Source: Glaucostegus cemiculus (Eukaryota). From it: DNA of 64,000 nucleotides. Below, in pieces: positions 1-54,556 of this stretch; position 1 is the first letter of the stretch, and each line of letters opens with the position of its first letter. The position numbers and the translations under genes were made by a program. The stretch is from the NCBI GenBank assembly GCA_976551045.1, contig CDPCPM010000736.1:434001-498000 (forward strand), in the 5' to 3' direction. The notes beneath the pieces are model-generated. The model did not search any database and was not told the origin of the DNA. It saw only the letters and a list, made by a program, of their open reading frames with translations.

Positions 1-349
1 ATTGGACTAAGACCCGCCCCGGATCACACACTGAATTTATTGAAATATTTAAATGTACTGAGAAATATCGCAGTTAAACTTAAGCTTGTAAAACATCCAA
101 AAAGGAATTGTAATAAAAAAAAATCTTCACATATTTTAAGCATCAGCAATATAACCCTGTCCCTTCTGCTTCTTAGATCTCATTGATAAAGCATGCAATT
201 GGTTTCTTCGCTAAATTGTGGGAGATTTAATGTGGTTTAATCCGTTTTTGTTAATTTATGGTTCTCATATTTCTTTCTGAGAACCACTACTTGGTCACCT
301 AAGTCACACGTTAAAGAACCGGTTGGCTTTTCATCTAATTTGGATGGTC

Positions 350-860
350 ATAGTCATACAACATGGAAACAGGTCTTTCAGCTCAACAAATACACGGCAA
401 CCAGTGGGCACCCATCCATGTTAATCCCATCTTCCAGCTCTTACCCCATAGCTTCAATGTCTGTGCGATTGAAGTGGCCATCTAAACACCTCTTAAATGC
501 TGTTAGCAAGTCTGCTTCCACCAGTGTCACGGGTAATGCATTCTGAGTACTCACTTTTCTCTGTGTGAAAAAGATGCCCCTCAGATCTTTTACCGCTGGC
601 CCAAAATCTTTGTCCTCTATTCACCTACGGTAATGGATGTGTGTGGGGGGCGGCGGGGTGGGGGGCGAAGATTTATGCAGTCCACTCTCTGTAAACCCCT
701 CACAATTATATATACTTCAGTTATGTCCCTTCTGAACCTCCACCGCTCCAGGGAGAACAGACCCAGCCTCTCCAGTCTCTCTCTTTATAACTGAAACACT
801 CCACCCAGGCAACATGCTGGAGAATCTCTTCTGTACCGTCTCTAGGGCGATCACATATTA
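350..860 (-). mobile_element. Degraded CR1-type LINE 3' fragment
   Basis: Similar to the other CR1 3' ends in the window (ccaggcaacat.ctgg.gaatct.ttctg.acc). Confidence 0.6.
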
Positions 861-1129
861 TACTTGGCGCGTTATAACCCGGAATTCACGGCACCAGCTT
901 GCGATTTCCTGCGAGTGGTACACCGAAGTCATTAATGACGATTCCTGGAAAACTGTTATGTTAACAAGTCCCGAGCATCATTCTATTTGATAACATTTAT
1001 TGCCAAATCAATTTTCTGGTGAATATTGAGGGAAACACGAATGTGATGATTTATTAAAGTTTGCGCCCCATAAAACACAGTTTAAATATATTAAAAATCA
1101 CATTATCAGCCAACAAGATGTTATGGAAT

Positions 1130-1420
1130 TACAAAAACAGAAATGCTGCTCATACTCCGCAGGTCAGGCAGCATCAATAGAGGGCGAGAGACAGAGTCAA
1201 TATATTAGGCCGTAAATAAAAACAAACGCAGATGCTAGAAATCTGAAATAAGAACGTAAAATATTGGAAGTACTCAGCAGGCGAGTTAGCGTCTGTGAAA
1301 AGACATGCGTTTTAACAGGGAGAAGTTCTGATATAGGGTCCCGGGCCGGAAAAGTTAGTTGTTTCTCTGTCCACAGATGCTACCTCACCCGTTGAGTGTT
1401 TCCAGCATTTTACGTTTTTA
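1130..1420. mobile_element. Penelope-derived non-autonomous repeat (inverted arms, degenerate hammerhead-like core)
   Basis: actc.gcaggtcaggcagcatc arm and inverted gatgct.cct.accc.ttgagt arm around ctgatatagggtcccgggccggaaaagtt. Confidence 0.55.
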
Positions 1421-2179
1421 ATTTGACATTTTAGGCCTTTCAATAGTACAACGTGGATATAGCTCGAAGAACAAAACTACGGTTTAAACTCAAGGCCTTC
1501 ACAAGTCTACGGAAGCTTAAATAGACTCATAGAATCTATTGTTACCAGGAATGAGCGCACTGAGAACACAGTGTTGAGTTTTAATAATCCCACGCTTTCT
1601 CAAATTATATTATTGTCAATGGGAGTTGGGACGTGACTTTCTTGGCACAGGCGACTACATGTTCATTCCCAGTTGATCTAGTTTCAGAAAATGTTTTTTT
1701 TTCTTCCTGCATTCTCCTTCTTTGATGTGTTTATTCAAACACGAAGGGAAGCTCAATGTTTATCAGCTGAGGAAATAAAATATATAAATTAGTAAAACGA
1801 CAAGTCGAATGGAGCAAAATTGACTGCAATTATTACTATTAACTGGCTGTCCAGAACGTTTCTGAATAACTGCTGAATGCGGAGCTGGATTTTGTCCAAA
1901 ATATTTTTGCTGTCACGCTGTCTTCCAGGCAACCTTGTTAAAATAAGTATCTGTTATCAGCTGCATCTGTGCCATAGCTAAAATGCAGTTCCTGTCATTT
2001 CAGTGCAGGACAACACTAGAGGGGACTGTCTGAGCTTCCACATGGTTTGTATTTCTATAGGGAGATCTCCCCTTCCATCCTGTGATGTCCTGCGAGTAAC
2101 TCGACGTATTGCATTTGATACTACCGTTCGATATAAAATCATTGTCTCAAAAATGCTCCGAAGCTATGGTCCACAAGCC

Positions 2180-2490
2180 GGCGACAGGTACAGTAGAGTA
2201 GCGTTTAGTGTAACGCTATTACGGCGCCAGCGACCCGAGTTCAAATCCGGCCACTGTCTGCAAGGTTTTTGTACTTTCTCCCCGTGTCTGTGTGCGTTTC
2301 CTCCGGGTGCTCCGGTTTCCTCCCACGTTCCAAAGACGTACGGGTTAGGAAGTTATGGGCGTGTTATGTTGGCGCCAGAAGCGTGGCGACACTTGCGAGC
2401 TGCCCCAAGAACACTACGCAAAAGATGTATTTCTCTGTGTGTTTCGGTGTACACGTGACTAATAAAGATATCGTATTCTTATCTTAGTCT
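2180..2490 (+). mobile_element. tRNA-derived V-SINE (HE1-like)
   Basis: A/B-box-like head, conserved core ctccgggtgctccggtttcctccca, AATAAA and simple-repeat tail. Many related copies occur in the window. Confidence 0.75.
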
Positions 2491-2637
2491 TAAAATACAG
2501 AGCGTGATACGAGATAAGCCATTTCTGCATATAACAATTAATTGTAGTTCGCATTTATCACCTGTAAACCCAACACCAAATACAGTCTACGATTCCAGTT
2601 AGAAATTCTTTACTGTATTCTATTGGACACTTGCCTG

Positions 2638-2795
2638 TTAGATCACATTGTTCCTATTGACGATTCCATGAGACTCCCGGAGACGGATGAGGAAAACTGT
2701 TACAATGTTGATCACAACAAATATTGCAAGTTTCAATCCCATTTCAACAACCTGCCAACGCAAGTCCCTTCCACTGCTTTCTGTTGTGTTCCTGC
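2638..2795 (-). CDS. Gene A stalk/TM/cytoplasmic exon: (R)RNTTESSGRDLRWQVVEMGLKLAIFVVINIVTVFLIRLRESHGIVNRNNVI*
   Basis: Acceptor ttctcaacag|GC. Hydrophobic stretch with Lys near its N-terminal end, short tail with no Tyr motif. Clearly paralogous to exon 18516-18697. Confidence 0.85.
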
Positions 2796-3962
2796 CTGTT
2801 GAGAATAATGAAATCAAATTCACCAATGACTTTTCTACGGACTTTCTATGACCTTCCAGTATCGTGGCCCTGGTTGTTCCTTGTTTCTTTCAAAATAAAG
2901 ACAAATACAAACACCAATGACATGGGAGGCAGCGGCGCCTCTTGTTGAGCTGCTGCGCCAGAGCGCCAGCAGCGTGGGTTCTACCCTGACTGTCGGTGTG
3001 GAGTCTGCATTTTCTCCCCGATTATGGAAATCTAAAACAACAACAGGAAAATGCCGGAAATACTCAATAGGACGATGCTCATCTGCGTCGTGGACCCTTC
3101 GTCAGAAATGAAAAGGAGACAAATGAGGCTTCTAAGTCTGCAGGGAGGGTGGGGCAGTGGGGAGTAACGTGATAGAGTAAAACTGGGTGACCATGGGATT
3201 TAAGCCATAAACAAGGTTGTCCGGTCAACGGGTGAACATAAGAACATAAGAAACAGGAGCAGGAGGAGGCCATCTGGCCGGTCGAGCCTGCTCCGCCATT
3301 GATTAGATCACGGCTAATGCGGCCGTGGACTCAGCTGCACCAACCTGCCTTAATTCCCCTACTATGCTAAAATCTATCCATCTGTTGACTTAAATATATT
3401 TAATGGGGTAGCCTCCACTGCTTCCCTGGGCAGAGAAGTCAACATATTCACTAGAAAAAGCAGTTACTCCTCAGCTGTGTCCTTAATCTACTTCCCTGAA
3501 TGTTTGGTCTATGTCCCTTAGTTCTGGTCTCACCTGCCAGTGGAACCAACATTCCTGTCTCTATCTTATATACCCTTTTCATAATTGTATATGTTCCTAT
3601 AAGATGTCCACTCATTCTTCTGAATTCCAGCAACTATAGTCCCAGGAGACACAATCTCTCACAAGTGAATCCCCTCATTCCCGAAATCAACGCGGTGAAC
3701 CTCCTCTGCACCGCCTACAAAGATAGTATATCTTTTCTCAAACAAGGAGACCGGAACTGCACGCAGTACTCTAGGCGCGGCCTCGCCAGTACCCGATACA
3801 GTTGCAGCATAATCACCCTGCTCTTAAATTCAATTCCCGTAGCAATGAAGGCCGATGGGAACAGTTAGAGAGCGAGTACATGGACAAAAGAATAAAAGGG
3901 TTACGAGATGCAGAGCAGGAGGACTGGCCCAGCAGGTCAGAGTGGGCAGGTTGTAGAGAGTC

Positions 3963-4015
<53 letters not shown>

Positions 4016-4751
4016 GAGAGAGAGAAGTAGAAGGGGTGGGGGGGGGGTGTGGGAAGCTGAGCTAATGTTACAGATAGATGACTGGTACAGACCGGGAACC
4101 CTGTTACAGTGTGTGTTTCCTCCCGGGTGTTCCAGTTTCCTCTCGCATCTCATTAACGTGCAACTTGGTATGTTAATTGACAACTGTCAATTATCACTTT
4201 GGGTGTTGCGGAATTAATGAGAACGTGGTGAGAGTAGGCTGCAGGATGAATTAATGGAGGAAGGTTTGTTCTTTGAGCCGGAATAGCCTCGATGGGCCAA
4301 ATGGCTTCCTTCTATGTTATGTAGAAACATGGGACTTTGCCTTGAGTTTGTCTGCTGAGCCTTTGCAAAGCAGAATAACGTGGTACCTTTTCCCCATTAA
4401 ATAGTATTTTTACGTCCACCATTTTACTACTTTCCACTGCAATTAAACACCACCCATCTTTTGTTCAGGAACATGAAGCGATTATGACATTTTAATTGAC
4501 AAGTGGACGTTTTATTTGTTAATAAATAAAGACTAGATATTTTGAAAGCTTTTTAGAATGTCCACTCAATTTATTGTTGGTGTATTGAATACAATAAAGC
4601 AATTTACTCTCTATCAAAGTTGTAATGGCGATGTTGCTGTATTGATTATTTCATCTCGTGGTCATTTATTGTCCAAAGGCGCATTTGGCAGTGGAATGTC
4701 TTGAGGTGCACATCGTTCAACCTCTGTCTGTCCATCTATCTATACGTCTTT

Positions 4752-4820
<69 letters not shown>

Positions 4821-7800
4821 AAGCACTCTGCTTTCACCACAAACTTCCACAGAATTGGTTGAACCGTTAATATTGCCCTTGGCCTATTGATTTCTCGATC
4901 AACGGTCTGTGGAGAACCGTGTACTTGAGTTCTGCTGATTTACTTGTTTGAAATTATAGACGACATCTCTGCCACAGAAAGGTAATTTAGTCTAATCTTC
5001 GACCACTCACATATTGTTTGGGTATAAGATTGACCGCAGGGGGACGTGTGTTAGAACGTCCACAATGTGTCAGAACGGCCCAAAATGTTGCGCCGACATA
5101 GCTAATCCCGCCTACTAACAGAATGCCCATATTCTTCCATATTGCTCTCATTCATGTGCCCATCCAAGCCCCTCTTAAAACCCCCCAATGAAATTGCCTC
5201 CACTACCTTATCAAGCACCGCACTCCAGGCATCCACCTGCGTTTTTGTAGAATGCCTCTCTATCTAACTGAAGAAGCGTTTGCCACATTATATTCTCAGC
5301 ATATTTTATGTACAGCGAGTCATTAAAATATTTCAACTGATGATAAAGATTTTCCTATTATTGCATCGTTTTATTCTTCATTTCCCCTTGTACGCAACAA
5401 CCACCGGATCTGTCTATCCACAGGATTTAATTGCACTTTGTACACAAGAGGATTGAACGACAGATACAAATGGAACAAATTTACCTAATGTTCACCCCTA
5501 AATATGATGTACCATGTAACAGCTGATTACAGCGTTTAATTCCAGAAGTATTTAACTCCCTGAATCTAAGTTCCCCAGCTGCCGTGATCTACCGTTTTAC
5601 TGTGGATCAATCGCCTTGGAAAACTAGCCCACAAATAACAACTATCATGATTGTTTTAATGCTGTTTTCTCGGTATCTTTCCCACCAATTCATGGTTTGG
5701 AATTGCGATTCCTAACGTCCTAGCAGGAGGTTATAGCTTCTGAAAGTGACCATCACTTTGGTATGGATTGTTACAAATTCAGCAGCCAAGTGCATTAATA
5801 ACCCTTAGAAATAGCTTTCGGTATTTGAAGTGGCGCTCAAATCTTTACTAATGCCAGAAGGACTCTGCAGATTCCTACAGTAAGCACTGTCTTCTTCAGG
5901 ATCTATTTCCCTGCATTATTATGATGGGTGTTGCATTTTAACCTAAAGCCTAACTAAAAGCGCACCGTTTGGCAACATTGACATAACTTCCAAGATTACA
6001 AACCGTTATCTTTAATGAGAGTAAAATCGGGTCACACATTGGGCGATTCCGTCAGTTGCCTGGTTGAAAAGGCCGGGTTAAACACCGCCTCCCCACCGCA
6101 CCCCCCCCCCCCCGAGAAATCCTCCAATTATGAGAATGACAGTTTCTATTTACTTGTGGTTGTCAGTCGAACGATAAACTCGTCCGTTTGAACGTCTCGC
6201 TCATTTTGTGAACAGCAATAATCGCCTTTAAACATTAATTATGTTCCGAATATCTGTAGCTTAAATTTAAATTGACTTAAGTGTTTTTTCCTGCTGTGTG
6301 GCAGCTGATGATGGTGGGTAGATCTCTGGGGTAATGCAAACTTACGGATGACTGTGACTACTGTCCCGTTTCCAAAATATTTTCCTTCCATGGTAGTATC
6401 CACTTGGCAGTAATACCTTCCTGTATCGGTCACTTTGAGGTCGGTGATTTCGATAGCTGCACCTGGAATGCCCTGTGAACTGTTTTCCAGAACGCGACCA
6501 TTGTACCGGTTGCACGTGTTGAGCACGGAACGGTCTTCATCGTCTTTATACCAACTGACGGCTGCAATCGCTCTGCCCCCTGAATAGTTTGTATTCCGGC
6601 TGAACGTACAGGTAAGGTGCACTGTTTCCCCTTCGGTAACGGTGATCCGCTGCGGCGATTGCATGATGGTTTCTCGGACGCCAACGGTTTCTGTAACCAG
6701 AAATAATTACAATTTTAACTCCGGAGTTTGTTGGCTGCGTTCATCATGAAGCATCACAGCATTGCGCCATAACGGTCAGTACTCAATTAAATATGAACAA
6801 AGCTAAAGAGCTGACTTTCGCAAGTCACGGCGGTGTGTCAGTCTGCAATAGGAGAGGAGTAAACGGCAAGCAATTGCTCCAAACCGTCTTACTGCTATAA
6901 GCAATACCTGACCTTTTGAATGCATCCAATACCATTCGGGTTTAAACTCTAGCGGGTAATAATTTATGCGCTCCTATCCACAGATAAAATAAACTCGGCT
7001 GATGAGTGCACTCTATTGTTTATGTAGGTTTGTATTGTTGTTAGGGATGAAAGCAGAGAGGAGAGGACGAACCTGTTACCATTCACAGAACGGCCCTAAC
7101 TTTGGGAAACATGAGTTTATGGTTGTTGCTGGGGCATATTTTCATGTTATTGTTATCCTTGTCAACACCCTGCTTGGAAAGAATTTGGAGGCAGAAGCCC
7201 TAACCCCATCTACAAAAGCGCCCGGATGAGCGTTTCATGTATGGTGTCCTGCGGGGATGGAGCCCAGAGACAGAACGGCTGCAAATGTCTTTGGAAAAGG
7301 AACACTGGTGGTTGTCCTTTCCACCTCAGCGGTGATCTGATGGGGCGAATTCTGATGACGGTGGGTACAACGTTGAATCTGAAGGTAAAACCATGTAAAC
7401 TTACGTGTGACTATGACTTCTGTCCCACTTCCAAGATACTTTCCGTTCATGAAAATATCCATTTGGCAGTAATACCTTCCTGTATCGTTCATTCTGAGGT
7501 GAATGATTTCGATAGATGAACTTTGAATATCGAGAACTTTGTTTTGAACAACGCGACCACTATACCCGCTGCACGTGTTGCAAACGGAACGGTTTTCCAC
7601 GTCTTTGTACCAGCTCAATGCCCCAATCACACTATCCCCCGTGTGGGTTGTAATCCGGCTGTAAGTACAGTTTAGCTGCACCGTCCCTCCTTCAGTAACG
7701 GTGACCTGCTGCGGCGATTGGCTGATTGTTACTGGGACTCCAACGGTTCCTGCAACCAGAAATAACCTCAATTTCAACGCCAGGGTTTGGTGGATGTGAG

Positions 7801-10800
7801 CATCATGAAGCATCAAAGCATTGCGCATAATGTTCTACATTCAGTCAAACAGGCAAGGGGATAAATCGTTGGGTTTCACGAGCTCGGTTAGTCTGACAGT
7901 CTTCAACAGAAGAAGAGTAAAGTGTGACTGGTAATCCTATGCCTTCCCATCTTCCATCAACATTACTCAGTTGAAGTAGTTAGAGACAGAAGGACTAACC
8001 ACACCTAAAAAGTGCCTCCATGAATAAAACAACAACATAGAATCAGAATCAGAATCAGTTTTATTGTCACAACCATATACATACATAGTATGCATAGGAG
8101 CGAGATACCATCCTCCTCAGGTGCTCGTCCCATTAAATAACAACCAACAGAGACACACAGTCACACTTAACAGAATAAACATTAAAAAATATTAAACATT
8201 AAAAACTACGGAAGTTAAAATTAAATTAATACGCAGATTAAATTAAAAATGTCCGGTAAATAAATAATAGTTATTAAAGTGAACGGGCTGATGGCGGGCG
8301 TTTAAAGTGCTGGTGCATTTCTGTGCACCTAGCACCTCCTAGTGTTAACAAGGAGGATGGAGGGATGAGAGAGTATGCAGTTCTGATGGCTTGCGGAAAG
8401 AAGCTATTGTTCAGCCTGGTCGTTCTTGCCCTGATACATTTAAGCCTCCTCCCCAATGGCAAAATTGTAAAGAGGTGATGGGAGGGGTGAGAAGGGTCGG
8501 CCATTATGCTTTTGGTCTTCCTCACACAACGGTCTTTGTATATGTCTGCGAGGGATGGAAGCGAGACACCTATGGTCCTCTCCGCAGCCCTAACTATCCA
8601 TTGGAGGGACTTCCGCCCAGCAGCTGAGCAGCTTCCAAACCAAACAGTGATACATTGAGTTAGGATGCTCTCAATGGTCCCTCTTTAGAAGGTTTTCATA
8701 ACGGAGGGATGGGGGTACGCTTTCCTCAGTCTCCGCAGGAAGTAGAGGCGTTTCTGAGCTTTCCTCGTGAGGGCCGTAATGTTAGTGGACCAGGTCAGGT
8801 AGTCGGTGATGTGCACCCCCAGGAACTTGGTGCTGCGTACTTGTTCCACAGCAGACCCGTTGATGGTCAGCGGGGCGTGCACATGGTGACCCCTCCTAAA
8901 ATCCACTATCATCTCCTTGGTTTTATCCACATTCAAGGAGAGGTTGTTGTCACAGCACCACACGGCTAGTTGTTTCACCTCCTCTCTGTAGTCCGACTCA
9001 TCGTCAGGTGTGGTTTGAAATGCGGCAAAACATGGCCGAAGGGCCTGTATTGTGCTGTATTGCTCTATGGTTCTATGGTTCTATAACATGCTGGAGGAAC
9101 TCAGCCCTTTTCTCCACGGATGCTGCCTGGCCTGCGGAGTTCCTCCAGCATCTGGATTCCAGCATCTGTAGTCCTTTGTTTCTCAAGTGTCTCGATGAAC
9201 AATTTAGGTATCGTAATCTGCGGGGATGGGACCCAGATAGAGGATGATTGAAAATATATCTGGAAAACGGACAGTTGTGGTTGCCTTTCTACCTCGGCGT
9301 GAATCTGATGGGGCGAATTCTGATGACGGCGGGTACTGCGTTGAATCTGAAGGTAAAATCATGTAAACTTACGTGTGACTCTGACTTCTGTCCCACTTCC
9401 AAGATACTTTCCGTCCATGAAAATATCCACTTGGCAGTAATACCTTCCTGTATCGTTCATTCTGAGGTGAATGATTTCGATAGATGAACTTTGAATACCG
9501 AGAACTTCGTTTTGCAGAACGCGACCACTATACCCGCTGCACGTGTTGCAAACAGAACGGTTTTCCACGTCTTTGTACCAGCTCAATGCCCCAATCACAC
9601 TATCCCCCGTGTGGGCAGTCCTCCGGCTGTAAGTACAGTTTAGCTGCACCGTCCCTCCTTCAGTAACGGTGACCTGCTGCGGCGATTGGCTGATTGTTAC
9701 TGGGACGCCAACAGTTCCTGCAACCAGAAATAATCATAATTTCAACAGCACAGTTTGGTGGATGTTTCCATCATTAAATGTCATTGTGCCATAACTTTCT
9801 GCACTCAGTTAAACATGGATGGACATAAATGACTGCGTTTTCCAAGCCGGGTTACTGTGATCGTCTTCTATAGGACAATGGTTGTTGCTTTTTTAACCTC
9901 TGTATGGCCACATACAGCAACATAAACCATCCAAGTTACGTAATTTATTTGAGATAAATAACGAGAGTTTCTTTAATGAGGGCAAAGGCGGCTGTAATAA
10001 AACATGTCGTTAATTCCCCTACTTCGTACTTATTCGCAGCGATTCATAGCCCACCATTGATCCATGCATAAAACACTTTGAAGCTAATTATCTTTCACAC
10101 TGGATTTCAACTTGCTGTCCAGGAAATGACAGTCCACTCACGGGGCAGTTATTGAGAAGCGGCCAGTTGATACCCCGTGTCCCGAACTCCAGGTATTTGC
10201 TTGATCTCACTAACTGAAAGCAAGTCCTGACGATTTTCTTAAACCACAGTGCAAGCACATGCTTTAACTTTGACTTGTTAAGATATTTTGTGAAACAAGA
10301 AGCGATTGCACGCTTTGCAATTTTACTATTAATTTGTTACATTTTGGCGCTAAAGCAACTATATCTCCACAGGTTTGTGTGTTGATTAGTTAAATTGTCC
10401 TCTGGGGCAGGGAGTGATAGAGGGAGGAACTTTATGTGTATTGCTATGAATACATTTATTCCTTGTTGTTAACTTTCTATAACACCTTTAGTTGTTACAA
10501 AAGCGCGATTAAATACAGGAGCAGATTGCCACTGAGTCAGTCTAAACAACACCTTACACCACAGCAATTTAAAGTACTCGAATGGTTGAGGACTCAGTTC
10601 CAAGTACGGTATTTTTGCGTCAAGTGCACGCCGACCATTTTATTAGCAAGAGTGAAAATCCGCAATCAACTCACTGAACTTACTTCAAGATAGTCGCCTC
10701 TGAACTTACCCGGAGGAACCAGTTTGTGCATATCTCTTTTTAATGTGTGTCTCTGTTCTGTTCTCATGAAAGTATTTAACTCTTTTTGAAAATGCTGGAT

Positions 10801-11300
10801 GCCCAGACCAGGCTGTTTCTAATTATTGTCAATCAAAGAATAAACAACTGGTTCCCAGCAGTTTATGATAGTCAATTGGGCATTTGGTGTCCATGATGTG
10901 GAATTATNNNNNNNNNNNNNNNNNNNNNNNNNNNNNNNNNNNNNNNNNNNNNNNNNNNNNNNNNNNNNNNNNNNNNNNNNNNNNNNNNNNNNNNNNNNNN
11001 NNNNNNNNNNNNNNNNNNNNNNNNNNNNNNNNNNNNNNNNNNNNNNNNNNNNNNNNNNNNNNNNNNNNNNNNNNNNNNNNNNNNNNNNNNNNNNNNNNNN
11101 NNNNNNNNNNNNNNNNNNNNNNNNNNNNNNNNNNNNNNNNNNNNNNNNNNNNNNNNNNNNNNNNNNNNNNNTGCGCGCTCGCGCTCGCGCGTATGCGTGC
11201 ATGAGCGCGCGCACACCCTTGTCCCCATATATGAAACTCCGTGTCTGGATTACTTACCAGAGAAAAACAGCGCTAACCAAACGACCATATTCCACAACAT
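2638..11300 (-). CDS. Gene A (spliced span): NKp30/NCR3-like VJ-type IgSF receptor; leader + three tandem V exons + Lys-containing TM/short tail (predicted activating)
   Basis: Exons 11300-11258, 9717-9373, 7749-7405, 6690-6346 and 2795-2638 all have canonical AG/GT ends with phase-1 junctions and join into an open frame. Confidence 0.85.
3235..3856 (-). mobile_element. CR1-type LINE 3' fragment
   Basis: Translation LEFRRMSGHLIGTYTIMK..PLAGETRTKGH is typical of the CR1 ORF2 C-terminus; (catAAGAA)n tail. Confidence 0.8.
3963..4025. repeat. (GA)n microsatellite
   Basis: Direct reading. Confidence 0.95.
4755..4817. repeat. (TC)n microsatellite
   Basis: Direct reading. Confidence 0.95.
6346..6690 (-). 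CDS. Gene A V exon 3 (VJ-type Ig V-set domain)
   Basis: ctggttacag|AA ... ATCC|gtaagt; 345 nt. Motifs LTC..WYK..DTGRYYC..FGNGTVVTV, with the J-like G strand in the same exon. Confidence 0.92.
7405..7749 (-). CDS. Gene A V exon 2 (VJ-type Ig V-set domain)
   Basis: ctggttgcag|GA ... ACAC|gtaagt; 345 nt. Motifs LNC..WYK..DTGRYYC..LGSGTEVIV, extra CxxC (CNTC). Confidence 0.92.
8039..9007 (-). mobile_element. 5'-truncated Rex1/Babar-type LINE with (GATTCT)n tail, between V exons 1 and 2 of gene A
   Basis: ORF WCCDNNLSLNVDKTKEMIVDFRR..KFLGVHITDYLTWSTN..KAQKRLYFLRRL and ARTTRLNNSFFPQAIR; tail repeats at 8039-8058. Confidence 0.88.
9373..9717 (-). CDS. Gene A V exon 1 (VJ-type Ig V-set domain)
   Basis: ctggttgcag|GA ... 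ACAC|gtaagt; 345 nt. About 96% identical to exon 7405-7749 by hand count. Confidence 0.92.
10908..11171. other. Assembly gap (N run) in gene A leader-V intron
   Basis: N run. Confidence 1.
11258..11300 (-). CDS. Gene A leader (signal peptide) exon MLWNMVVWLALFFS(G)
   Basis: gaaccATG start, 43 nt, phase-1 donor TCTG|gtaagt, hydrophobic. Paralogous to 43426-43468. Confidence 0.85.
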
Positions 11301-12784
11301 GGTTCGGCGGCTGCCTGGAAATGAAGGCAGATCATCATTTTATTAGACATGCATTCAGCTTATTGAATAATATGATTGTGTTAGTGATGATTACTAAGTT
11401 TCTGAGCAACTCTTCTCATATTAAAACATTTCATCCTCTTGAATCTCAAGACCTGAGTATTTCTTAAGTTTTGTTCCCAGTAACTTTGCAACTGCAGACA
11501 TGCTGTTTACCGGTGTACCGTTCCATGCAAGTTCTGGGCGTCATTGCGAGGTCCCAATTTCTTCAGTCTAAATATACAGGTCCAGCCCAGTGGGTTGAGG
11601 TCAGAGAAAAAAAACAGTGCAAGATCAATGATATGGATACACTCTAGGCAGGTCGAGGAGATGTAGAATTGTTAGAACTTCTCGGGAAGTTTGTGAATTC
11701 TATGACAATTGCAGAGAGATGTATGGGTGAAATTCAGATTCTTCTGAAAGAATCATCTATTGTCCATTCGTAATTGCACATGAATTCAGGGGCATTCTAC
11801 GTCACTTCAGGTGGTATTAAAGGTTAACAACAATGCTGCCAGGATGTGGTATCACCAAGAGGGTAAGATTCCGTCACTCGATTGTATTGAACCAAATACA
11901 CTTGAATTTGTAATAACAGCAATTCATCAATGTCTAACTTTGTTTTCATTCGTCAGATTTAAGGAAGCCAGTTGCCTTGGATTTGAATTAATAACTCTTA
12001 CACCTCAATCCAGTAACATGATATCAAAATGCTCCCACGCCACTCATGTATCTGGGCCAACGTGTGCAGACAAGGACATATTTTCTCTGACAGATTGGTG
12101 AGTGATATCTCCAGGTATTTTCAAGGATCCGTTTCTGGGTTTAACAGCCTAAACCTACCCAATCTCAGAACAAGAAAATAGTAATTGTCTCGCCACAGGA
12201 CCTTTTCCCAGTTAGTTTAATTCCACGGCCCTACTTTCAGTTTTTACCCTTTCATGTTTACTCCATTGAATACCTTCATAATTTTGTGTGTCCCAGTTCA
12301 GTCTCCTCTAAGCGTCCTCTTGTTAAAAAGTGTGTGTGGGGGCGGAGGGGAATGGGTTGGGGGGGGGGGGAGGAAAAGAACGTTTCCAATAGGCCAGAAA
12401 CGTTATCGATCTCTGCGTCATCTGCAGCGCTATCATACCTTCGCTCAACTGCGCTAAGCTGAACGACATGCAGTACACTTGTCGCGTAAATAGTATTGAA
12501 GACAGTTTGGGGGTAACTATTTTACCTTTATATGCCATACCTCAGCTAATGAAGGAAAACATTCTGTACTCCTTTTTAGCCACTGCTTGGTCTGCCCTGC
12601 TACACTGAAGGATTTATGGTTACACACAACTTCCTTATGTATTCGCTTGCTACGAGCCACCAATCTACCTCTCTGTATTTTATTCCATTTGTCGTTTCCT
12701 TCCCAAACATCATTTCCTCCTGGAGCCTAAAACTTTTATTCTGCCAATAACATATCCAAGTTTGTACCCCCTGCAAACTGTTTG

Positions 12785-16994: not shown

Positions 16995-17866
16995 TGTCAT
17001 GATATACAAAGACCGTTGTGTGAGGAAGACCAAAAGCATAATGGCCGACCCCTCTCACCCCTCCCACCACCTCTTCACAATTTTGCCATCAGGGAGGAGG
17101 CTTAAATGTATCAGGGCAAGAACGTCCAGGCTGAACAATAGCTTCTTTCCGCAAGCCATAAGAACTGCAAACTCTCTCATCCCTCCATCTTCCTTTGTTA
17201 ACACTAGGAGATGCTAGGTGCACAGAAATGCACCAGCACTTTAAATGCCCGACACCAGCCCGTTCACTTTAAGATCTATTTATGTAAGAACTAATGGGTA
17301 ATATTTTGTACTGTGTATTCTGCCAAGTGTGTATGTGTCTCTCTGTTGGTTGTTATGTTATTCTTTTTTATGAGACGTGTTCCTGTGGAGGACGGTATCT
17401 CGCTCCTATGCGTACCATGTATGTATATGGTTGTGACAATAAAACTGATTCTGATTCTGATTCTGATTCTGAGTACTGGCCCTTGATTTGGCTCCTTGGA
17501 TGCCTCGTTGTGCAGCACATGGATTCCATGCTGGACTGATTGCATAATGACATACATCTGAGCCCCATCAGGGGCCTAGCATAAGTACCTGGGTTTCTCT
17601 AGCACTAGTTGCCAGAGTATTGGTCAACCTTCGGGTATACTTTGGCTCCTATCTGCTTAGAGCGGTCTACTCTAGAGCAGTCCTGCGTTCTCTAGTCCTG
17701 CTTGAAGATTCAGTTTGTGTTGGGATTACTACTCAGATCTCCGAGGCAAGATTCCTTTCAATTGCTGCCTGTGTTTGGTCCTGAGGAAGTATCCTGACTC
17801 CCGGCTTGTACCAGTGTGCTGTATTCAGGTTCACTGTGAGCTTGCTCTTCAATCAACATTGTGACA
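16995..17866 (+). mobile_element. Solo LTR with 5-bp TSD AATAT, interrupted near its 5' end by a Rex1/Babar LINE
   Basis: TGTCATG at 16995, remainder 17467-17866 ending TGTGACA; AATAT on both flanks. Strand is tentative. Confidence 0.85.
17002..17470 (+). mobile_element. 5'-truncated Rex1/Babar-type LINE with (GATTCT)n tail
   Basis: Near-identical to the reverse complement of 8039-8545 (KTKSIMADPSHPSHHLFTILPSGRRLKCIRARTSRLNNSFFPQAIR). Confidence 0.88.
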
Positions 17867-53339: not shown

Positions 53340-54556
53340 GTGAGTCACTCTCTTGTAATCTTTACCATGTAATTCCAAATATATTGTAACTTTGAAAGTG
53401 TGTGGATATCTCAGGCTGTTTCCTAATGCAGAGGAGTACAGGAATTGAAATGTCATGTTATAACTGTTCTAGTTTTAGACTCCACTAGTTTAGGGGGGGA
53501 AAGAGACTGTGATTATACTCCTCATGATTTTATCAACCTTTTTAGGTGCCCCTACACTCCTGGGGGGAAAAAAAGTCGCAGCCTATCCAAGCCCTCCCTA
53601 AAACTCAAGCCCTCCAGTCCCCGCAGTTGAAGGGCTTGAGTATAAGCAGATTACCCAATGTATTACCGTTTTCCTCGGTCACAGTGTTGAGCCAGTTGAG
53701 ATTCTGGTCAACACTGAGCTCCTGGTTAACACTTGGAGTAAAAGGTAGACGGAGGAATTCGGCGATGATGTTTTGAATAAAAAGAGGCACAAAACAGTGA
53801 TGATAAAACCACACATTTTATAATTTGGGTTATAGCTTCGCCGGAGGGGATCTCTGTCAATCCTGTAGGAAGTCACTGATGGAGAAAGGCTTTCCCTGTA
53901 CACTCTAGGAGTGCTGACTGAGATCAAAGTGGCCCAGACTCCGAGCTCGGTCACTGCAACGCAAGAAGGGTCGGTGCAGCTGACCTGCACTTTGGAGGTG
54001 ATCTCATCCTCCGTCGGGAAGCTTGGCTGGAGACGGGCCTCGCTGGACCTGGAGATAAATGACCAGATTCCGTTCTATCGGGGCTGCGTGGTCAGATCTG
54101 GTCAGAAGTTATTTGCCCAGAAGACGGCGTTCATTGAAATCAACGATTTGACGAAATTCGACTCGGATCTTTACGTCTGCGAGGTGGAGGTTCCGGGGGT
54201 TGGAAAGGGAAAAGGGAATGGGACAGCACTTAATGTAATCGACAGTAAGTAGAAAACATTGGAGATGACTGTAAGAGTGTAACAGCGCTGTGACTATTAA
54301 TGTGTGATAGGCTTTGCGATTTGTCTGCGTTAGCTTGAAAGCACACTGCTCACTGTCCGTCTCCTGAGGTGAAAGGAATGGGGTCGGAGTGAAACATTAA
54401 CGCCACCCAATTGATGGTTGCCTCGCTTCCCGCAAGTGAAACTCGAATAATATTACATTCATTCAGGACTCTGCTGCCGTTCAGCATAAGGCGCGGCACA
54501 GTGGCACAGCTGTCACTCTCAGTTACCGGGTTCGATCCTGACCTCCGGTTCTGTCT

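What the first reader, a model, noticed from the sequence alone, without database searches (positions are those of the whole stretch)
6346..11300. One leader, three interchangeable V cassettes, one TM: possible splice-based receptor diversification
Seen: three V exons of exactly 345 nt, each phase 1-1 with intact splice sites and no stops. No leader or TM exon is detectable between them. Each begins with the second half of a signal peptide (G/E-T-V-G-V), as expected for an exon that follows the leader directly rather than for an internal domain. Inference: this is either a three-V-domain receptor, unusual for the single-domain NKp30 family, or a cassette system in which any subset of V exons (up to 7 in-frame combinations) is spliced between leader and TM. 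The latter would diversify the receptor without RAG.
Basis: partly seen in the sequence, partly recalled or inferred. Interest (0 to 1): 0.85.

Follow-up and report, generated by a model that had tools for sequence, protein, structure and literature searches.

The report
Three-V-domain NKp30-like receptor in a ray
An NKp30-like immune receptor gene of a cartilaginous fish carries three tandem copies of its V-domain exon; it likely makes a multi-domain receptor plus shorter forms by ordinary exon skipping, rather than choosing one V per cell.

Summary
The anatomy is real. On the minus strand lie one leader, three intact 345-nt phase-1/1 V exons and one lysine-bearing TM exon, with no leader or TM exon between the V exons. 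The gene sits in an NCR3-like cluster flanked by AIF1-, PRRC2- and CLIC-family genes. The probable manta ray orthologue has RefSeq models L-Va-Vb-TM and L-Vb-TM. So V exons are co-included, the upstream one can be skipped, and no Va-only form was found. V3 groups with manta Vb and V1/V2 weakly with Va. The two inner introns share both ends, which fits unit duplication by unequal crossing-over. V1 and V2 were probably homogenised later by gene conversion. No device for mutually exclusive splicing was found. Two-V genes recur in a sawshark model and on another contig here. Best reading: a multi-V activating receptor with length isoforms. A Dscam-like one-V-per-transcript system is unsupported but not excluded, as splicing in this species was not examined. 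Interest 0.33.

The parts
11258..11314 (-). Leader exon (coding 11300-11258, 14 codons + 1 nt); AG acceptor before 11314 implies an upstream 5' exon that was not located
   Evidence: homologous leader exons in 5 paralogues
9373..9717 (-). V1 exon, 345 nt, unsplit VJ-type V domain, Va type
8039..9080 (-). LINE-like 3' fragment inserted in the V1-V2 intron (one internal stop); class name recalled from its motifs
   Evidence: (80% match to 17002-17464)
7405..7749 (-). V2 exon, 345 nt, Va type; 95.9% identical to V1 in DNA while distal flanks are 70-75% identical (probable conversion tract from the acceptor to about 70 nt past the donor)
6346..6690 (-). V3 exon, 345 nt, Vb type, membrane-proximal; lacks one Cys of the CxxC pair found in V1/V2
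2635..2795 (-). TM/cytoplasmic exon with a Lys in the hydrophobic stretch, short tail, stop at 2640-2638; inferred GC donor after 2635
1500..1766 (-). Probable non-coding last exon; AATAAA at 1735; 3' end not determined
   Evidence: (74-85% identity to the same stretch of paralogues A and C)

Best explanation
This NKp30/NCR3-like gene has three intact tandem V exons between one leader and one lysine-bearing TM exon, and likely encodes a multi-V activating receptor (411 aa if all three are spliced in) with shorter in-frame forms from ordinary skipping of the upstream V exons. Inferred history: a single-V gene duplicated its V exon (Va, Vb) before this lineage split from the manta ray. Unequal crossing-over then added a middle unit, and gene conversion later made V1 and V2 nearly identical. 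Inferred function: the TM lysine recruits an ITAM adaptor. Extra V domains would lengthen the receptor and add avidity or a second specificity. V3 would be the near-constant membrane-proximal domain.
For: Shown: exon anatomy and frame; no hidden leader or TM exon. Manta RefSeq models X1/X2 (299/298 aa, 2 Pfam V-set stretches in X2) and X3 (182 aa, leader joined to Vb) have consecutive accessions and lie in one cluster. A buffalo genome paper describing the NCBI pipeline says alternative variants need whole-length support from a long alignment or one sample's RNA-seq reads (PMC5737279, passage); that this held for the manta annotation is inferred. V3 + manta Vb + Hemitrygon V form a branch (92/94), V1/V2 + Va a weak one (73/59), and a V1+V2+V3 clade is rejected (p-AU 0.0185). 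Residues exclusive among 18 V rows: 3 for V1/V2/Va, 4 for V3/Vb/Hemitrygon, 0 for V1+V2+V3. The introns V1-V2 and V2-V3 match at both ends (180 nt at 81%, 174 nt at 72%). V1/V2 dS is 0.068 against 25-30% flank mismatch (Fisher p 5e-5 and 1.3e-3). Simulated neutral survival of an exon since the Va/Vb split is 0-6%. Two-V architecture recurs in a sawshark model (P0022) and at C300:1355405-1362850. Precedent: tandem Ig exons of shark UrIg2 were duplicated, homogenised by conversion and expressed in one chain (PMC12227049 section 7).
Against: The three-V mRNA itself is not shown; all splice evidence comes from predicted models of another species with only two V exons. Orthology is imperfect: neither key branch is starred, a manta Va+Vb clade is not rejected (p-AU 0.151), 2 residues are exclusive to the manta/Hemitrygon V rows, and the TM exon is closer to a sawfish single-V model (40 of 51) than to the manta gene (32 of 51). 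The Hemitrygon model has Vb only. Since the V1/V2 conversion, an unused exon would survive by chance 28-60% of the time, and V1/V2 dN/dS of 0.51 rests on 9 and 5 changes, so one of them could be silent.
Confidence: 0.64

Rival explanations
1. Only part of the array is used: the main product is L-V3-TM or a two-V form, and one or both of V1/V2 are rarely spliced leftovers kept intact by recent conversion.
For: The Hemitrygon model is Vb-only and manta X3 skips Va. Chance survival since the V1/V2 conversion is 28-60%. A LINE-like insertion lies about 290 nt upstream of the V2 acceptor.
Against: Va-type exons have stayed intact since the Va/Vb split (0-6% by chance) and are included in 2 of 3 manta models. 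V1 and V2 have normal AG and GTAAGT sites, as in the single-V paralogues. V3 gives Glu rather than the paralogues' Gly after the leader, a weak hint that it is mostly internal.
Confidence: 0.2
2. One reading: one V exon (or a regulated subset) is chosen per transcript or per cell, giving receptors of different specificity from one gene.
For: Equal length and phase make all 7 subsets in frame. One skip isoform is modelled in manta. V3 differs from V1/V2 by about 40%. V1/V2 differences include residues 32-34 and 101, which fall in predicted binding loops (loop assignment from recalled V-domain layout).
Against: Manta models co-include Va and Vb. No Va-only protein appeared among the 3 cluster members or in three word-based homologue searches (limited sensitivity). 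The introns are 1623 and 714 nt, all GT-AG and frame-preserving, so steric, U2/U12 and NMD devices do not apply. Only 4 inverted matches of 12-15 nt were found in the pre-mRNA, none linking the cassettes in a docking/selector pattern. V1 and V2 were homogenised, which erases diversity.
Confidence: 0.11
3. The array is an assembly artefact, or three genes with unseen leader and TM exons.
For: The region is a tandem cluster of similar genes; read support could not be inspected.
Against: V1/V2 flanks differ by 25-30%, far more than haplotypes would; one intron carries a private insertion; there is no N between the V exons; no extra leader or TM was found; the manta gene shares the layout.
Confidence: 0.03
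4. The extra V exons serve as donors for somatic gene conversion, as chicken Ig pseudo-V genes do (recalled).
For: A conversion tract between V1 and V2 is likely.
Against: The tract is in the assembly and so is most simply germline. The exons are intact, lie downstream of the leader and keep their splice sites, unlike pseudo-V donors. Germline conversion of tandem Ig exons is documented in sharks.
Confidence: 0.02

Closest known systems
Human NKp30 (NCR3)
   Same: Unsplit VJ-type V exon; charged TM residue; short tail. Best single-domain natural hit in the PDB for the profile of these V domains (47.5 bits, E 1.8e-11). Neighbours belong to the AIF1, PRRC2 and CLIC families.
   Different: NKp30 has one IgV and a TM arginine, and its main isoforms differ in the cytoplasmic tail (PMC6514059, PMC12272517, passages). 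Here there are three V exons and a TM lysine, within a large paired-receptor cluster.
Mobula birostris RefSeq models XP_072113490-492
   Same: Leader, Va, Vb and TM in the same order; 61-68% identity per domain; same tail type; one-V model 182 aa against 181 aa predicted here.
   Different: Two V exons, not three; predicted models named 'pIgR-like' or 'NCR3-like' automatically.
Shark UrIg2 (PMC12227049)
   Same: Non-rearranging VJ gene of elasmobranchs whose Ig exons duplicated in tandem, were homogenised by conversion and vary in number between species.
   Different: There the C1 exons are repeated; here the ligand-binding V exon is.
Dscam1 mutually exclusive exon clusters
   Same: Tandem homologous Ig exons of equal phase between shared exons.
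   Different: Dscam exons are never co-included and form large arrays (abstract starts of PMC1397879 and PMC4835542). Here there are 3 whole-domain exons, co-included in the orthologue's models, with no exclusivity device found.

Membership tests
NCR3/NKp30 | V and J parts in one non-rearranging exon | tested here: met
   Each exon runs through the GxGT G strand; no heptamer-nonamer signal in 1-12000, only 2 lone heptamers.
NCR3/NKp30 | Sequence closer to NKp30 than to other V domains | tested here: inconclusive
   NKp30 is the best single-domain natural PDB hit (47.5 bits) but TCR alpha follows at 45.7. The nearest RefSeq proteins are mostly named NCR3-like.
NCR3/NKp30 | Charged residue in the TM segment | tested here: met
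   Lys in the TM stretch, kept in paralogues A, C, E and in ray and shark relatives; human NKp30 has Arg.
NCR3/NKp30 | Position in MHC class III beside AIF1 and PRRC2A (human order recalled) | tested here: inconclusive
   Same contig: BAT2_N exons at 113.7-128.7 kb, AIF-1 exons at 155-166 kb, V cluster 196-488 kb, CLIC at 598-605 kb. Paralogues unresolved: AIF1L 72.9 vs AIF1 71.3 bits; CLIC4 102.8, CLIC1 95.2, CLIC3 52.7. No C1-set hit on this contig among 150 scored of 747 candidates.
NCR3/NKp30 | Single extracellular IgV domain | tested here: not met
   Three V exons. Filed as an NCR3-like paralogue, not as canonical NKp30.
NCR3/NKp30 | Binds B7-H6 and signals through CD3zeta/FcRgamma | not testable with these tools
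   Needs binding and co-precipitation assays.
Mutually exclusive exon cluster (Dscam type) | Tandem homologous exons of equal length and phase | tested here: met
Mutually exclusive exon cluster (Dscam type) | Exons not co-included in one transcript | tested here: not met
   Tested only on the probable orthologue: 2 of 3 manta models hold both V domains. Untested in this species.
Mutually exclusive exon cluster (Dscam type) | An enforcing device (short intron, U2/U12 clash, frame shift, docking/selector pairing) | tested here: inconclusive
   The first three do not apply. No long pairing was found, but short docking sites need cross-species intron DNA, which was not available.

The most novel reading that the evidence does not exclude
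A non-rearranging VJ receptor in the elasmobranch MHC region picks one of its tandem V exons per transcript or per cell (L-V1-TM, L-V2-TM, L-V3-TM). That would be a splice-based, Dscam-like way of varying a vertebrate lymphocyte receptor's binding domain without RAG, in the gene class thought to resemble the antigen-receptor ancestor.
Probability: 0.1. Interest if true: 0.75.

Novelty: new variant of a known kind. Interest (0 to 1): 0.33.

Why it matters
It shows that the supposedly single-domain NKp30 family repeatedly gains V domains by intragenic exon duplication in sharks and rays: this gene and its manta orthologue, a sawshark model, and a second two-V gene in this genome. That may tune receptor reach or avidity by splicing. 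It gives a cheap test of whether a non-rearranging VJ gene varies its binding domain by splicing. Under the likely reading it is a tidy example of known IgSF domain-number plasticity, not a new diversification system.

Tried and rejected
RNA: no RNA holder was listed for window 6200-9800, so no reads were laid; this is no evidence either way. Earlier findings: three look-ups showed nothing. The profile search of protein representatives was unavailable, so the survey of relatives rests on three word-based searches and is incomplete. AlphaFold model of the manta two-V protein on a 9-row alignment: mean pLDDT 65, pTM 0.38; its strand pattern fits two V sandwiches and a TM helix, but domain orientation is unresolved, and Foldseek hits to scFvs (TM about 0.27, rmsd 14-19 A) add nothing. 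The ESM Atlas gave only generic V-set clusters. RAG rearrangement was rejected (unsplit VJ exons, no RSS). The inverted-repeat list was filled by a microsatellite pair in the V3-TM intron, so one search repeated the test with low-complexity masking. Synteny scans used only the best-ranked open frames (147, mostly from the top of 2192 candidates; 110 of 1458), and contig bases 1-94000 were not fetched. The second tree left out 5 long-branch rows. Papers not held: Kinlein 2021 on shark NCR3 genes, Flajnik 2012, Ohta and Flajnik 2015, Ohta 2019. They or their supplements may already describe multi-V NCR3 genes. Searches listed no paper on multi-V NCR3 genes, judged from titles and abstract starts.

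Full report
Observation. The finding is a minus-strand gene. The leader is at 11300-11258, V1 at 9717-9373, V2 at 7749-7405, V3 at 6690-6346, and the TM exon starts at 2795. The V exons are 345 nt, phase 1-1, stop-free, bounded by AG and GTAAGT, and pass the Pfam V-set cut-off. All 7 non-empty subsets stay in frame: 181, 296 or 411 aa. Profiles from 6 leader and 4 TM exons of paralogues found nothing between leader and TM at E<=10 over 204 kb. The one N stretch lies in the leader-V1 intron.

Setting. The own-genome search gave 11 V matches, 9 on this contig and 2 on C300. Profile scans of contig bases 94001-696508 found 13 full-length V exons: the 3 here and 10 others. The close paralogues A, B, C, E and F have one V each. 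A, C, E and this gene have a lysine-bearing TM exon; B and F end in tyrosine-motif tails. The cluster lies between BAT2_N and AIF-1 exons on one side and CCN and CLIC exons on the other. This matches the human NCR3-AIF1-PRRC2A neighbourhood (recalled), though AIF1 versus AIF1L and CLIC1 versus CLIC4 were not resolved. NKp30 is the best single-domain natural PDB hit, narrowly ahead of TCR alpha. The nearest proteins are from rays, so the animal is inferred to be a batoid.

Relatives decide most of the question. A manta ray gene has three RefSeq models with consecutive accessions. X1 and X2 are leader-Va-Vb-TM and differ by one residue at the TM acceptor; X3 is leader-Vb-TM. No Va-only protein was among the 3 cluster members or in the three homologue searches. 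A Hemitrygon model is Vb-only. The NCBI pipeline, as described in a buffalo genome paper (PMC5737279, passage), keeps alternative variants only with whole-length transcript support; applying this to manta is inference. In the tree, V3 joins manta Vb and the Hemitrygon V (92/94) and V1/V2 join Va (73/59). A V1+V2+V3 clade is rejected (p-AU 0.0185), but a manta Va+Vb clade is not (0.151) (5 long rows left out; one search has all 27). Exclusive residues agree: 3 for V1/V2/Va, 4 for V3/Vb/Hemitrygon, 0 for the three local exons, against 2 for the manta/Hemitrygon rows. The TM exon is closer to a sawfish single-V model (40 of 51) than to the manta gene (32 of 51), so orthology is probable, not proven. 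Two-V genes also appear in a sawshark model of another subtype and on C300 of this genome.

History from the DNA. The distal intron upstream of V1 and the intron downstream of V3 resemble those of single-V paralogue A. The two inner introns match each other at both ends (180 nt at 81%, 174 nt at 72%). This is what unequal crossing-over in a Va-Vb array would leave. V1 and V2 are 95.9% identical with dS 0.068, but their distal flanks are only 70-75% identical (85 of 121 upstream, 81 of 108 downstream; Fisher p 5e-5 and 1.3e-3). The duplication is therefore old and the exon was probably converted later. An unused exon would rarely survive since the Va/Vb split (0-6% in simulation) but often since the conversion (28-60%). 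So the Va type and V3 are likely under selection, while use of both V1 and V2 is open. Shark UrIg2 shows the same duplication-plus-conversion pattern in a multi-domain chain (PMC12227049, section 7 read).

Mechanism. Shown: anatomy, frame, duplication pattern and the relatives' models. Inferred: a multi-V activating receptor whose upstream V exons can be skipped and whose TM lysine recruits an ITAM adaptor, by analogy with NKp30 and NKp44 (PMC6514059, passages). No exclusivity device was found. The introns are 1623 and 714 nt, GT-AG and frame-neutral, and the pre-mRNA has only 4 inverted matches of 12-15 nt outside microsatellites. Short docking sites could be missed. The repertoire gain would be small: two clearly distinct V types.

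Comparison and novelty. It works like NKp30 in V type, charged TM and neighbourhood, but fails the single-IgV feature, so it is filed as an NCR3-like paralogue. It fails the no-co-inclusion test of Dscam-type clusters on the orthologue's models. Two-V forms are already in RefSeq as automatic models; a three-V gene was not found in the protein searches or paper listings. The key shark NCR3 paper (Kinlein 2021) and three related papers were not held, so novelty in print is uncertain. Papers seen: PMC12227049 (passages and section 7); PMC10751288, PMC12272517, PMC6514059, PMC5737279 and PMC10450919 (passages); PMC1397879 and PMC4835542 (listing and abstract start). No supplements were read.

Verdict. 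Real, and a new variant of a known kind: an NCR3-like receptor gene with a triplicated V exon, probably giving 3-V, 2-V and 1-V length isoforms (0.64). Partial use of the array 0.20, exclusive cassette choice 0.11, artefact 0.03, somatic conversion 0.02. Interest 0.33; 0.75 if exclusive choice were shown.

Noticed in passing
G000:C300:1355405-1362850 (+), L028-L029: A second candidate two-V gene: leader-like exon at 1355405, V exons at about 1357901 and 1361258, TM-like exon at about 1362800. The two V domains are very divergent from each other.
   Followed up: partly
G000:C736:381123-393100 and 408158-421190: Paired receptors: B (tyrosine-motif tail, in-frame stop early in V) and C (Lys TM) have V domains 82% identical and flanks 82-98% identical. 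Sawfish models P0002 and P0006 form a similar pair at 93%.
   Followed up: partly
window 43468-31091 (-): Inhibitory-type paralogue F: leader 43468-43426, V 40620-40270 (351 nt), tail exon 31384-31091 with two ITIM-like tyrosine motifs; TM exon not located.
   Followed up: partly
window 20430-18520 (-) and 53869-54249 (+): Two more divergent V genes. E has a Lys TM exon, no leader found, and groups with shark proteins P0016 and P0010. G is the most divergent V in the cluster.
   Followed up: partly
P0010 / P0022 (sawshark models): A two-V NCR3-like model with a membrane isoform (310 aa) and an isoform lacking the TM (251 aa), possibly secreted.
   Followed up: no
window 2635-2629 (-): The donor after the TM exon appears to be GC (GCAAGT), kept in paralogues A, C and D; the stop lies 3 nt before it.
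   Followed up: partly
window 6346-6690 (-): V3 has 3 cysteines against 4 in V1/V2, leaving one unpaired; manta Vb keeps both of the CxxC pair. It could form an interchain bond.
   Followed up: no
L020:4359-9050 (-), G000:C736:348359-353050: A 1564-aa open frame with SCAN, zinc knuckle, integrase, RT and RNase H domains, integrase before RT: an LTR-retrotransposon-like element inside the cluster. Observed only.
   Followed up: no
G000:C736:334140-341364 (+): Decayed paralogue: altered leader start, only the last 90 nt or so of the V exon left, tail exon open.
   Followed up: partly
L062:7992-8507 (+), G000:C736:191992-192507: A cobalamin-binding-protein exon (PF01122) between the AIF1-family gene and the first V exon.
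   Followed up: no
window 3955-4034 and 4752-4829: Opposed (GA)n/(CT)n microsatellites about 720 nt apart in the V3-TM intron could pair in the pre-mRNA; no exon was seen between them.
   Followed up: no
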